Assembly: GCA_009786125.1 (NCBI GenBank)
Contig: WQTU01000139.1
Span: 8,483-72,482, forward strand
Length of the DNA: 64,000 nt
Origin: Spirochaetota bacterium
Lineage (GTDB): Bacteria > Spirochaetota > Spirochaetia > CADAEX01
Direction: 5' to 3'
Part shown: one piece after another, positions 60,001 to 63,000 of the stretch
Numbering within the stretch: position 1 is the first letter of the stretch
Layout of the letters: each line of letters begins with the position of its first letter
Program-made: the position numbers

Positions 60001-63000
60001 TCATAAGACCTTTGCCAATTCCCTGCTGGTTCGTAACTATAAAAATATGCTTAAACCCAGATGCAATTTTTGGAAAGACATCGAGAAAATCTTTTTTAAA
60101 TTTAAAGTCATTAAAGTCGTATATATATGCATCCGGCATTCTTTCGTTAATAACACCATCTCTGTCAAGAAAAAGAGTCCATGCAGCCTTTTCACACATA
60201 ATATTATTTATAATACCCCTGATCTTTGGTTAATATTTTCAAATATTGAGATGCACCTTTATGAATATCTGTCATCTCTTTATCATATTTTCCAATTTTT
60301 CTTAAATCTTCAAGATCTGCCTTTGTATATGCCTGATATTTGCCTTTTAATTTCTCCGGGAAAGGTATTTCCTCTATTCTTATCTCTTTATCAGCAAACT
60401 GCTCTTTTATGGCAATTGCAGCATCATAAAAGCTTTTGCACTGTCCTGTACCACAATTAAATATTCCCGAAATATTGTTATCAAGAAAATGGAGATTGAT
60501 TTTTACTATATCATCCACAAAAACAAAATCTCTTAAAAAATTCTTACTTCCTTCAAATACTTTTATAACACCTGTCTCTTTTGCCTGGTTGCAAAAGTGA
60601 AAAAAAACAGAAGCCATCTTTCCTTTGTGATTTTCTTGCGGCCCGTAAACATTAAAATACCTAAGTCCTACAATCTGGTTTTTACTTGATTTTGCGTTGT
60701 CCCTTACATATTGATCAAATAAGTATTTTGAATACGCATATATATTCAGGGGATACTCGTTACTTCTCTCTTCTTTAAAGCCTTTGTCTCCGTTTCCGTA
60801 CACCGAAGCAGATGAAGCATAAATGAATTTTATGTTTTTTCTGCTGCAGAAATTATAAAGCTGTTTGCTAAACTCATAATTATTTTTCATCATAAAAGCG
60901 CCGTCAGTTTCCATTGTATCTGAACATGCACCCTGATGGGAAATAGCTGAAATATTATCAATAGAATCCAGCTTATTTAAAAAATCTTCTGTGAGTAAAA
61001 TATCTTTGAATTTTAAACTATTAAGATTAAGGTGCTTTTCACTATGTCTTAAATTATCAACTATAATTATATCTTCAATACCTCTGTCATTTAGCCCTTT
61101 AACAATATTGCTGCCAATAAATCCGGCTCCTCCGGTTACTATTATCATTTATTGTTTCTCCTGTATTTTTTTAATTATATTTGTACTTGAATATCCATCA
61201 AGAAATTTTACAAGCTTTACTTCTTTTACATATTCGTTGCCAACAACAGATTCAACAGAATAATCTCCGCCTTTAACAAGAACATCCGGGGTTATCTTTT
61301 TTATTATTTCAAGCGGAGTATCTGTATCAAAAACAACAACATAATCTATAAAAGAAAAGTTTGTAAGAACTGTAAGCCTGTCGGAAAGATTATTTATTGG
61401 TCTGGATTCGCCTTTAAGTCTTTTAATTGATGAATCACTGTTAAGACCAAGAATAAGAATATCGCCGAAAGATTTTGCTTCTTTTAAAACTTTTACATGA
61501 CCTGCATGGAAAAGATCAAAGCAGCCATTGGTAAAAACTATTTTTTTACCTCTACCCCTAAGGCCTGCAACCAAGGATTCCAACTCATTTAAACCAACAA
61601 CTTTTTTTCTTTCTTCGTCAAAAGATTGTTCTATCTCTTCTGCAGAAACAGATGCTGTCCCCAATTTTCCGACAACAATACCTGCTGCTTTATTGGTAAC
61701 CAGAAGAGATTCTTCGAGATTAAATTTCGCTCCTAGACATACAGACAATATTGCAACAACTGTATCACCTGCTCCTGATACATCAAAAACTTCTTTTGCT
61801 TTTGTTGGCATGTGAATAATTGATTTGCCGTCAAAACAGCTCATTCCTTTCTCAGACCTCGTTACTAGAAGTTTTTGGAGATTATATTTTTCTGCGATAT
61901 AACATATATATTTCTCGATGTCTTCGTCGTTATTTGATATTTCTTTGCCGACCATTGCTTTAAATTCTGAAAAATTTGGCGTAACAATATAACTGCCTGA
62001 ATACTTTTCCCAGTTTGTTCCTTTGGGATCAACTATTGTTGGGATATTTTTTTCTTTGCATACATTTATTATAAATTGGCAAAGTTCTTTTGAGCAAATT
62101 CCTTTTCCATAGTCTGATAGGATAACTGCTGTTCTGTTCTGTTCTGTTCTGTTCTGTTCATCGCAGTTTTTTCTACCTGCTGCATGAAGGCTTTCTTAAG
62201 AAACTCTTCTGCCTCTTTGTTATCTTCTACTGGGTCTTCAAAATCCATTCTTACAATTTGCTGACGCTCGCCTATAATTCTTGCTTTTGTTATTGTAGGT
62301 TTTTTTATAGAAATAAAATCACGTTCTATCTTTTTCTCGGCTAACAGTTTTTCAAGCTTTTTTCTGTTTTCATCATCGCCTGCATAACCTAACAGAAAAG
62401 CAGATGCTCCAACATCTGCAATATTTACAGCAACATTCGCAGCGCCGCCGGGAGTGTAAGTAATGTGATCAACTTTAACTACAGGCACCGGCGCTTCCGG
62501 AGAAAGCCTGTTTACTTTCCCATAGTAATAAATATCAAGCATTATATCGCCAATTACAATTATGCGAATATTATCAAAATTCAAGCTTCCCATATATAAT
62601 CCTTGCTTGTCTTCATAATTTTATGGGTATATATAAAAGACTAACCCTTTTATTATCTATCAGAGTCTAATAATTCAGAAGCTGCTGTTATTATTTTTTC
62701 AGCAGGAATAGAAGTTAAGCATTTTCTTTCAAACGGGCAACTTCTGCTGCCATTTAAGTCCCAGCAATTAAAACAATCACAGTTTTCGTTTTTTACAACT
62801 CTTACAGTTTTAGACAAGCCTCCCAGGGGCACGCATCGCTTATCATCTGTAGGACCAAAAATTGATATAACAGGTATTCCTGTAGCTGCAGCTATGTGGG
62901 AAGGACCTGTATCTGCGCTTATAAGTAGTTTTGCATGGCTTAACACAGCTGCAAGAATTCTTATATTAGATATATCATCAAATATTTTAACTTTGCTCTT

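What the first reader, a model, noticed from the sequence alone, without database searches (positions are those of the whole stretch)
62126..62160. hldE is split by a frameshift at an intragenic (GTTCT)5 repeat, making it a candidate phase-variable LPS-core switch
The kinase domain ORF (62069-62593) reads through five perfect AGAAC units on the coding strand. It then terminates 20 codons later.

The authentic continuation, AVILSDYGKGICSKEL..., is intact in another frame and runs into the adenylyltransferase half (61149-61955).

By my count, deleting one unit (4 copies) or adding two (7 copies) restores a single ~479-aa HldE reading ...AMNRTEQNRTAVILSDYGKG....

Both halves are otherwise undecayed. 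This argues for a reversible slipped-strand switch rather than an old pseudogene. Switching hldE off would truncate the heptose-containing LPS inner core, a known route to phage-receptor and antigenic variation.
Basis: seen in the sequence. Interest (0 to 1): 0.72.

Follow-up and report, generated by a model that had tools for sequence, protein, structure and literature searches.

The report
Pentanucleotide repeat splits spirochaete hldE gene
In an uncultured spirochaete whose closest sequenced relatives come from termite guts, a newly arisen run of six AACAG units sits inside the gene that makes the sugar donor ADP-heptose and puts it out of frame, so it is a credible but unproven slippage-driven on/off switch for a surface sugar.

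Summary
On the minus strand a perfect (AACAG)6 tract at 62129-62158 splits an otherwise intact bifunctional hldE into a 174-aa N-terminal ORF and a C-terminal frame that stays open to 61149.

- **Frame arithmetic:** 2, 5, 8 or 11 units give one 474-489 aa protein. The 5-unit form passes the curated HldE model.
the tract is an insertion absent from every relative at 82-88% identity.
seven bases upstream the window is 1 nt shorter than all relatives. Adding one A would also repair the frame.
- **No decay:** neither half is decayed, and the heptose genes found in the cluster are intact.
- **Source:** a metagenome contig. The same split products occur in NCBI, JGI and ENA records.
- **Not shown:** no other tract length is on record anywhere, so switching is not demonstrated.
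- **Unexplained:** a k=31 Logan assembly breaks inside the tract, but not where simple ±1-unit mixtures predict.
- **Untested:** no lipid A or Kdo genes were seen, so the "LPS inner core" role is untested.

Verdict: a real repeat and a real frameshift. It is a plausible new member of the known class of repeat-driven contingency loci (about 0.5). A plain recent loss-of-function allele is the main rival.

The parts
62129..62159 (-). Perfect (AACAG)6 microsatellite, plus one period-consistent G at its 5' end, inside hldE. It encodes N-R-T-E-Q cyclically and has no stop codon in any frame.
   Evidence: Absent from all relatives.
62166..62172 (-). A6C segment that is 1 nt shorter than the homologous A-rich run in every relative (GAAAAAAAATG / GAGAAAAAATG becomes GAAAAAAC-TG). 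It lies 7 nt upstream of the tract. Because of it, 5 units (not 6) are in frame.
   Evidence: DNA comparison with L002, L003, L008 and L010. Frame table.
62069..62593 (-). N-terminal hldE ORF as assembled: 174 aa, comprising the first ~145 residues of the PfkB-type heptose-7-phosphate kinase domain, the tract, and 19 out-of-frame codons.
   Evidence: The identical product is in NCBI (MCL2295400.1), JGI/IMG, ENA and MetaClust.
61149..62128 (-). Remainder of hldE in the other frame: the rest of the kinase domain plus the complete adenylyltransferase domain. The called ORF is 61149-61955 (268 aa).
60204..61148 (-). hldD, the ADP-glyceromanno-heptose 6-epimerase. It is intact and starts immediately after the hldE stop.
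   Evidence: TIGR02197, 383.5 bits against a cutoff of 274.6.
59660..60199 (-). GmhB-like heptose-1,7-bisphosphate phosphatase, intact.
   Evidence: NF006506, 131.9 bits, below the 178 cutoff; best family match.
62653..63780 (-). GT9-family (heptosyltransferase-like) glycosyltransferase immediately upstream of hldE. It is intact but not conserved at this position in relatives.
   Evidence: PF01075, 66.9 bits. Sub-threshold for the WaaC, WaaF and WaaQ equivalogs. No tblastn hit in the relatives' flanks.
53512..54069 (-). GmhA-like sedoheptulose-7-phosphate isomerase, intact.
   Evidence: TIGR00441, 196.5 bits, just under the 209 cutoff. Coordinates checked.

Best explanation
The locus is a recently born, intragenic pentanucleotide microsatellite in hldE of an uncultured spirochaete (closest relatives are termite-gut metagenome sequences), captured in an OFF state.

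**Proposed mechanism.** Slipped-strand mispairing during replication changes the number of AACAG units in 5-nt steps. With the adjacent 1-nt deletion in place, 2, 5, 8 or 11 units give one full-length HldE, with a hydrophilic 3-18 residue loop insertion. Every other number truncates the kinase domain after about 145 residues. That would stop ADP-heptose synthesis and remove heptose from whatever surface glycan the neighbouring GT9 transferase builds.

**Shown:**
- the tract and the frame arithmetic;
- that the tract is lineage-specific;
- the adjacent compensating indel;
- that both gene halves and the pathway partners are intact;
- that the insertion falls in a loop of the predicted structure.

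**Inferred:**
- that slippage occurs at a useful rate;
- that ON forms exist in the population;
- that the 5-unit protein is active;
- that the phenotype is a change in surface glycan or phage receptor.
For: - **Tract length.** A perfect 6-unit, non-triplet repeat is far beyond chance. It is above the published cut-off of 5 or more units for putative phase variation (PMC6321876).
- **Frame table.** ON at n = 2, 5, 8, 11. The 5-unit protein passes the HldE equivalog cutoff end to end.
- **Lineage-specific origin.** Every close relative for which this region was read (four full-length and one truncated protein, four distinct DNA loci; 82-86% identity) reads ...EKKCD|AVILSDY... with no repeat. 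Growing from 0 to 6 units needs several slippage events, so the tract has been dynamic in this lineage.
- **Paired indels.** Two frame-relevant differences from relatives (-1 nt and +30 nt) lie 7 nt apart, and there are no others in 1.4 kb. That is the pattern of a compensated pair, which implies recent selection for an open frame with the -1 present (inference).
- **No decay.** There are 2 private substitutions at fully conserved columns, against 0-2 in intact relatives. Identity of the N- and C-parts falls in the same range as the relatives show among themselves.
- **Partners intact.** hldD, gmhB-like, gmhA-like and GT9 genes are all intact.
- **Structure.** In the AlphaFold2 model (mean pLDDT 80.3) the insertion lies in the loop between helix 126-144 and strand 153-158. 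Local confidence is low and the flanks are confident. P0009 also varies in length in this loop (a 5-residue insertion a few columns upstream).
- **Not assembler-specific.** The same 174-aa product appears in NCBI MAG, JGI/IMG, MetaClust and ENA records, from contigs of 137,773 and 181,331 nt.
- **Assembly break.** A k=31 Logan contig that is 100% identical to the window ends inside the tract. A clonal k=31 graph predicts that contig's other end exactly but predicts no break at the tract.
Against: - Only one allele (6 units) is on record. There is no homologue of 90% identity or more that is in frame, no other N-terminal variant, and none of 10 modelled alleles is in the 15-billion-protein collection.
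- Six units is just above the cut-off. The PhasomeIt authors note that mutability near their cut-offs may be below 1e-5.
- The tract is not conserved in any relative, sits mid-gene rather than near the 5' end, and is in a core precursor enzyme rather than a terminal transferase.
- The Logan break lies at offset 2 of the tract. Mixtures of 5+6 units or of 6 with 7 or more predict offsets 4 or 0. Only a base variant at 62157 or a dead end reproduces it. It is therefore not clean evidence for unit-number heterogeneity.
- Adding one A in the A6 run with 6 units would also restore the frame. The repeat need not be the lesion that inactivated the gene.
- Whether the organism has LPS is unknown.
Confidence: 0.5

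Rival explanations
1. Plain recent loss of function. The microsatellite expanded, or the nearby 1-nt deletion occurred, and inactivated hldE in a population where heptosylation is dispensable. The allele is effectively fixed and on its way to becoming a pseudogene, not used as a switch.
For: - Only the OFF allele exists in all sources.
- There are two indel differences from relatives rather than one.
- The tract is short, at 6 units.
- No relative has a repeat here, so there is no sign of long-term maintenance.
- The GT9 partner is not conserved in relatives, which suggests an accessory pathway.
Against: - There is no extra decay in 1.4 kb.
- The downstream and upstream pathway genes are intact.
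- The two indels are 7 nt apart and cancel exactly at 5 units. Two independent neutral lesions would fall that close only about 2% of the time (inference).
- The tract is perfectly pure.
Confidence: 0.33
2. Assembly or consensus artefact. The true dominant allele is in frame, and the 6-unit or A6C state comes from mis-assembly or from collapsing a mixed population in a metagenome.
For: - The source is a MEGAHIT metagenome contig.
- The Logan k=31 assembly fails to cross the tract, which shows some irregularity in the reads there.
Against: - The 31-nt tract is much shorter than k=141 or a read length.
- An identical truncated product is reported from contigs of different length in the NCBI, JGI/IMG, MetaClust and ENA records.
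- The Logan contig itself carries at least 5.6 units (28 nt) next to the downstream flank and is otherwise 100% identical over 5,953 nt.
- Illumina errors at A6 runs or at six-unit pentamer tracts are rare (general knowledge).
Confidence: 0.1
3. The split is tolerated or bypassed. Either ribosomal or transcriptional frameshifting on the tract makes full-length HldE, or the two pieces, or another enzyme such as the neighbouring 171-aa nucleotidyltransferase, supply the activity.
For: - A 171-aa cytidylyltransferase-like gene lies two genes upstream.
- The C-terminal ORF retains a whole adenylyltransferase domain.
Against: - The break is in the middle of the PfkB kinase fold, not at the domain boundary.
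- The 171-aa protein scores 62 bits against a cutoff of 181.5 for the heptose adenylyltransferase domain, and there is no second kinase in the ~72 kb available.
- AACAG repeats are not a known slippery site (general knowledge).
- No Shine-Dalgarno-like sequence precedes the ATG at 61955.
Confidence: 0.04

Closest known systems
Haemophilus influenzae LOS contingency genes with intragenic tetranucleotide repeats (lic1A, lic2A, lgtC, lex2A)
   Same: A perfect non-triplet repeat inside the reading frame. Slipped-strand changes in unit number toggle a full-length against a truncated enzyme and so alter a surface glycolipid (own knowledge; survey in PMC2651432, listed).
   Different: Those tracts sit near the 5' end, usually have far more units, are conserved and polymorphic across strains, and affect outer-core decoration. 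Here the tract is mid-gene, has 6 units, is seen in one lineage only, and hits the precursor enzyme for all heptose.
Pentanucleotide-repeat phase variation: Neisseria opa (CTCTT)n, and type III mod genes with CACAG / GCACA[n]
   Same: A 5-nt unit gives three phases, one of which is ON (PMC13183285; PMC5909438; Ryan and Lo 1999, cited in PMC6321876).
   Different: Those targets are adhesins or DNA methyltransferases in host-adapted pathogens. Variation in repeat number between isolates is documented there, and is not documented here.
Coxiella burnetii LPS phase I to phase II transition through frameshifts in the HldE-like gene cbu0678
   Same: A heptose kinase/adenylyltransferase homologue is the recurrent mutational target, and truncating its kinase domain shortens LPS (PMC5843353).
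   Different: Those are ordinary passage-selected frameshift mutations, essentially irreversible, and not repeat-driven. The canonical hldE (cbu1655) stays intact there.
Campylobacter jejuni poly-G phase-variable LOS and capsule genes
   Same: Repeat-driven translational switches in surface-glycan genes, linked to escape from phage receptors (PMC8437040, PMC8224891, PMC6321876).
   Different: Those use homopolymeric G tracts, with many loci per genome. hldE itself was not found reported as phase-variable in two full-text searches.

Membership tests
Repeat-mediated translational phase-variable (contingency) locus | Perfect tandem repeat of a non-triplet unit inside the ORF, at or above the accepted length cut-off (5 or more units for pentanucleotides) | tested here: met
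   (AACAG)6, 100% pure. Cut-off taken from PMC6321876.
Repeat-mediated translational phase-variable (contingency) locus | Gain or loss of units alternates between a full-length and a truncated product | tested here: met
   In silico, n = 2, 5, 8, 11 give 474-489 aa and all other n give 164-194 aa.
Repeat-mediated translational phase-variable (contingency) locus | Tract-length polymorphism among cells, isolates or samples of the same species | tested here: inconclusive
   Only the 6-unit allele is on record, but effectively one population has been sampled. The Logan contig breaks in the tract in a way that unit-number mixtures do not explain.
Repeat-mediated translational phase-variable (contingency) locus | High-frequency, reversible switching with a phenotypic read-out | not testable with these tools
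   This needs read pile-ups, reporter assays or glycan gels.
Repeat-mediated translational phase-variable (contingency) locus | The ORF is otherwise kept intact by selection | tested here: met
   Passes the HldE equivalog when repaired. Shows 2 private changes at invariant columns against 0-2 in relatives. Divergence is no greater than among relatives.
Bifunctional HldE (NCBIfam NF008454) | One polypeptide with an N-terminal PfkB heptose-7-phosphate kinase domain and a C-terminal heptose-1-phosphate adenylyltransferase domain, scoring above the curated cutoff | tested here: met
   Met only for the repaired 5-unit sequence: 536.6 bits against 521, with TIGR02198 at 362 bits and TIGR02199 at 187 bits. 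As assembled, the gene encodes two fragments.
[quoted passage not shown] | GmhA, HldE, GmhB and HldD are present together | tested here: met
   All four are in the cluster. The GmhA-like and GmhB-like proteins score just under their equivalog cutoffs.
[quoted passage not shown] | Kdo-lipid A synthesis and a WaaC/WaaF-type heptosyltransferase in the same genome | tested here: inconclusive
   The GT9 protein is sub-threshold for WaaC, WaaF and WaaQ. No lpx or kdt genes appear among the proteins scanned or pre-annotated across the 72 kb seen; several ORFs were not scanned. The rest of the genome is not available.
Decaying pseudogene | Several independent inactivating lesions, excess change at conserved sites, and loss of pathway partners | tested here: not met
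   There is one net frame defect. The only two indels are adjacent and cancel at 5 units. No excess change was found, and the partners are intact.

The most novel reading that the evidence does not exclude
This is a snapshot of a contingency locus being born. In one lineage of non-pathogenic gut spirochaetes a pentanucleotide microsatellite arose de novo in a loop-coding segment of hldE. It became locked to function by an adjacent compensating 1-nt deletion. It now toggles the whole ADP-heptose supply, and so both surface heptosylation (a possible phage receptor) and production of the ADP-heptose innate-immune signal. It does this at the precursor step rather than at a terminal glycosyltransferase.
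Probability: 0.35. Interest if true: 0.6.

Novelty: new member of a known kind. Interest (0 to 1): 0.4.

Why it matters
If the switch is real, it would extend repeat-driven phase variation in three directions:
- from host-adapted pathogens to an uncultured gut-symbiont spirochaete;
- from terminal glycosyltransferases to the enzyme that supplies all ADP-heptose;
- to a dated example of how such a locus originates, since the repeat is absent in every relative and has a compensating indel next to it.

There is also a practical point. Annotation pipelines called this gene as two unrelated proteins (a "PfkB family carbohydrate kinase" and an "adenylyltransferase"). Metabolic reconstructions of this MAG will therefore mis-score the heptose pathway.

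If it is only a fresh loss-of-function allele, it is an ordinary observation.

Tried and rejected
- **Other tract lengths.** I ran a full-length homologue search, an N-terminal fragment search, cluster look-ups, and exact look-ups of 10 modelled alleles (n = 2, 3, 4, 5, 7, 8, 9, 10, 11, and A-run +1 with n = 6). Only the 6-unit OFF allele exists. One search also failed to list the 76-79% identical N-termini of P0001-P0004, so that search is not exhaustive.
- **Same species elsewhere.** One scan each of genome contigs and metagenome contigs found only relatives at 82-88% identity, all without the repeat.
- **Logan assemblies through neighbouring genes.** hldD and gmhB retrieved one 6.6-kb contig that ends in the tract. 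The GT9 look-up found no upstream Logan contig.
- **Reading the Logan break as heterogeneity.** Graph simulations show that the clonal sequence should not break there. They also show that mixtures differing by one or more units do not reproduce the observed offset. I therefore did not count the break as evidence for unit slippage.
- **A second ADP-heptose route.** The 171-aa nucleotidyltransferase is not a credible HldC. No HddA/HddC-type genes were seen among the window proteins that were scanned.
- **Promoter and terminator scan around the operon.** This was no better than shuffles.
- **Literature.** Full-text searches found no paper reporting hldE as a repeat-driven phase-variable gene, and none on LPS or heptose in termite-gut treponemes.
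- **Functional two-gene split.** I rejected this reading because the break is inside the kinase fold.
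Full report
**1. What is in the sequence**

On the minus strand the window reads ...GTAGAAAAAACTGCGATG(AACAG)6CAGTTATCCTATCAGACTATGG.... Tandem Repeats Finder reports a period-5 array of 6.2 copies with 100% matches at 62129-62159. The perfect (AACAG)6 occupies 62129-62158.

The ORF 62069-62593(-) runs through the tract as ...EKTAMNRTEQNRTEQ and stops 19 codons later. 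A second frame, holding AVILSDYGKGICSKEL..., is open from the tract to the stop at 61149.

None of 300 Markov simulations of the window reached even four pentanucleotide copies. A 15-nt probe is expected 0.00 times by chance.

**2. What the gene is**

With five units the two pieces join into a 479-aa protein. It matches the curated HldE model NF008454 from profile position 7 to 474 of 475, scoring 536.6 bits against a cutoff of 521. It also passes both domain models, TIGR02198 (kinase) and TIGR02199 (adenylyltransferase). Pfam sees PfkB at residues 10-313 and CTP_transf_like at 352-464.

The neighbouring genes are:
- hldD immediately downstream (383.5 bits against a cutoff of 274.6);
- a GmhB-like phosphatase;
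- an SDR epimerase and a GT4 transferase;
- further on, a GmhA-like isomerase;
- directly upstream, a GT9 (heptosyltransferase-family) gene.

The break falls at about residue 145 of a kinase fold of roughly 320 residues, not at the boundary between the two domains. The two ORFs therefore cannot be a functional two-gene arrangement.

**3. Where the sequence comes from**

The window is part of a 181-kb MEGAHIT contig in ENA assembly ERZ27257345. The same 174-aa truncated product is recorded in NCBI (MCL2295400.1, [quoted passage not shown]), JGI/IMG and MetaClust. The C-terminal piece is MCL2295399.1, on a 137,773-nt contig. An artefact of one particular assembler is therefore unlikely.

The closest homologues (82-88% identity) are mostly termite-gut metagenome contigs and Spirochaetaceae/Spirochaetia MAGs.

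**4.

Every close relative for which this region was read (P0001-P0005 as proteins; L002, L003, L008 and L010 as DNA) reads ...EKKCD|AVILSDYGKG... (GA[A/G]A[A/G]AAAATG[C/T]GATG|CAGTTAT) with no repeat at all. L011 begins downstream of the site. The tract is therefore a lineage-specific 30-nt insertion.

The window is also 1 nt shorter than every relative in the A-rich run 7 nt upstream (A8T or GA6T in relatives; A6CT here).

The frame arithmetic follows from these two changes. Thirty nucleotides alone would be in frame. It is the net change of -1 +30 that is out of frame, while -1 +25 (five units) is in frame. The computed table shows ON at n = 2, 5, 8, 11. If one A is restored in the run, ON shifts to n = 0, 3, 6, and n = 0 regenerates the 471-aa architecture of the relatives.

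There are thus two single-step routes back to an open frame: unit slippage, or a +1 in a six-base A run.

**5. Is the gene decaying?**

It is not detectably decaying.
- The repaired protein shares all 60-plus invariant columns of a 12-sequence alignment.
- It has 2 private substitutions at fully conserved columns, against 0-2 for the intact relatives.
- Its N-part (76-79%) and C-part (88-89%) identities fall within the ranges the relatives show among themselves (72-83% and 88-92%).
- hldE-hldD-gmhB-SDR synteny is conserved in the relatives, and all partners here are intact.

**6. Would the ON protein work?**

An AlphaFold2 model of the 5-unit protein has mean pLDDT 80.3. It places the inserted residues 145-152 in the loop between helix 126-144 and strand 153-158. 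Local confidence is about 60 and the flanks score 87-92.

Alignment to the solved Burkholderia heptose kinase 4E84 puts a gap at the same loop. P0009 also varies in length there (a 5-residue insertion a few columns upstream).

The loop is at the N-terminal end of a beta-strand. In alpha/beta kinases this is the side away from the active site (an inference from general fold principles). The repeat encodes only hydrophilic residues (N-R-T-E-Q) and has no stop codon in any frame. The insertion is plausibly tolerated, but this has not been tested.

**7. Is it switching?**

This is the crux, and it could not be shown.

*No other allele on record.* No in-frame homologue of 90% identity or more, no alternative N-terminal fragment, and none of ten modelled alleles exists in the protein collection. 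No same-species contig was found in the genome or metagenome collections. Effectively one population has been sampled.

*The Logan contig.* A k=31 Logan contig from SRR5247064, also present in a second run, is 100% identical to the window over 5,953 nt. It ends inside the tract, beginning CAG(AACAG)5CAGTTATCC at window 62156.

*Graph simulations.* I built the k=31 graph of the clonal window sequence.
- It reproduces that contig's other end to the base, at a 32-nt palindrome (55558).
- It predicts no break at the hldE tract. Something in the reads therefore differs from the clonal consensus at this point.
- Simulated mixtures of 5+6 units, or of 6 with 7 or more, break at offsets 4 or 0, not at the observed offset 2.
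- Only a variant at base 62157 (an SNP or an AA deletion) or a dead end reproduces the observed offset.

I record the break as unexplained. I do not count it as evidence for unit slippage.

**8. Weighing the explanations**

*For a contingency switch (about 0.5):*
- The tract meets the accepted sequence criteria: 5 or more pentanucleotide units, inside an ORF, with frame-toggling (PMC6321876).
- It must have grown through several slippage steps in this lineage.
- It is perfectly pure, and the gene and pathway are intact.
- The only two indels in 1.4 kb lie 7 nt apart and cancel at five units. This looks like a compensated pair kept by selection for function. Two independent neutral lesions would fall that close only about 2% of the time.

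*For a plain recent loss of function (about 0.33):*
- Only OFF is observed, and six units is near the threshold where mutability may be low.
- No relative maintains a repeat here.
- The GT9 partner is not conserved in relatives, which suggests a dispensable accessory glycan.

*Artefact (about 0.1):* this is unlikely given concordant records and a tract far shorter than the reads or k=141.

*Bypass of the split (about 0.04):*
- The break is inside the kinase fold.
- The neighbouring 171-aa nucleotidyltransferase scores 62 bits against a cutoff of 181.5 for the heptose adenylyltransferase domain.
- Together these make bypass improbable.

**9. The "LPS inner core" claim**

This part is inference. 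The GT9 protein is below threshold for WaaC, WaaF and WaaQ. No lipid A or Kdo genes were seen among the proteins scanned or pre-annotated across the ~72 kb available. Two literature searches found nothing on heptose or LPS in termite-gut treponemes.

The safer statement is that OFF would remove ADP-heptose, and therefore heptose, from whatever glycoconjugate this cluster builds.

The window also carries several defence systems (Type I R-M, Gabija, an E1/E2/JAB set, PDC-S01). This fits phage pressure but proves nothing about this locus.

**10. Comparison with known systems**

The proposed mechanism is the classical slipped-strand translational switch. Known examples are the H. influenzae LOS genes, Neisseria opa (CTCTT)n, pentanucleotide tracts in type III mod genes, and C. 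jejuni poly-G loci (PMC2651432, PMC13183285, PMC5909438, PMC6321876, PMC8437040).

An HldE-like enzyme as a mutational target for LPS truncation is known from Coxiella burnetii cbu0678. There the frameshifts are ordinary and irreversible (PMC5843353).

I found no report of hldE itself as a repeat-driven phase-variable gene.

**Verdict.** This would be a new member of a known kind, not a new mechanism. Interest is moderate (0.4).

Noticed in passing
window 35090-35131: A second long pentanucleotide repeat, (ATAAT)8, which reads (TATTA)8 on the minus strand. It lies about 35 nt upstream of a small minus-strand ORF (ATG near 35054, preceded by AGGAGA), so it is in promoter position. It is a candidate transcriptional repeat switch. 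Two pentanucleotide tracts of six or more units in 64 kb is unusual, and none was found in about 35 kb of relatives' loci.
   Followed up: partly
window 63818-63836: (TTTG)4, which reads (CAAA)4/(AAAC)4 on the coding strand, followed by (TTTA)3. It lies in the short gap between the 171-aa nucleotidyltransferase gene and the GT9 start, upstream of the GT9-hldE operon.
   Followed up: no
window 55556-55587: A perfect 32-nt palindrome, AAAAGGTATCATACCGCGGTATGATACCTTTT, between the RtcB and formyltransferase genes. It is followed by a T-run, so it looks like a terminator. It is exactly where the Logan k=31 contig ends, as the clonal graph predicts.
   Followed up: yes
window 510-12068: A Type I restriction-modification system (hsdR 510-3740, hsdS 7442-8542, hsdM 10527-12068). 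It has a complete Gabija pair inserted between hsdR and hsdS: GajA at 5820-7445 (710 bits) and GajB at 4703-5830 (480 bits). A RhuM-family gene and a Schlafen/AlbA_2 gene are also present.
   Followed up: partly
window 15946-23208: A gene set comprising an E1-like ThiF protein (20255-21379), a JAB protein (21382-22368) and an E2-like protein (22693-23208), next to a 1,426-aa protein with an FtsK/SpoIIIE domain that gives a partial SspH-like hit. It resembles ubiquitin-like conjugation defence modules. The system type was not resolved.
   Followed up: partly
window 39422-40723: An AAA_14 + DUF4143 ATPase that matches the PADLOC candidate defence family PDC-S01 at 528 bits.
   Followed up: no
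window 12189-12225 and 53334-53370: An exact 37-nt GC-rich sequence, GCGACACGGATGTCGCGATAAAGCGCCAGGCAGCTTG, present twice in inverted orientation. Both copies are intergenic and contain a small hairpin. It may be a REP-like dispersed element.
   Followed up: partly
L001 8240-8755 (window edge, about 63839-64354): A 171-aa cytidylyltransferase-like gene upstream of GT9. It falls between glycerol-3-phosphate cytidylyltransferase (66 bits, cutoff 165) and the heptose adenylyltransferase domain (62 bits, cutoff 181.5). Its substrate is unassigned.
   Followed up: partly
L021/L025 position 1 (window 62156): The Logan contig starts at offset 2 of the tract. The clonal sequence does not reproduce this position, and neither do mixtures differing by one or more units. 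It would fit a variant at base 62157, including an in-frame AA deletion, or a local coverage gap.
   Followed up: partly
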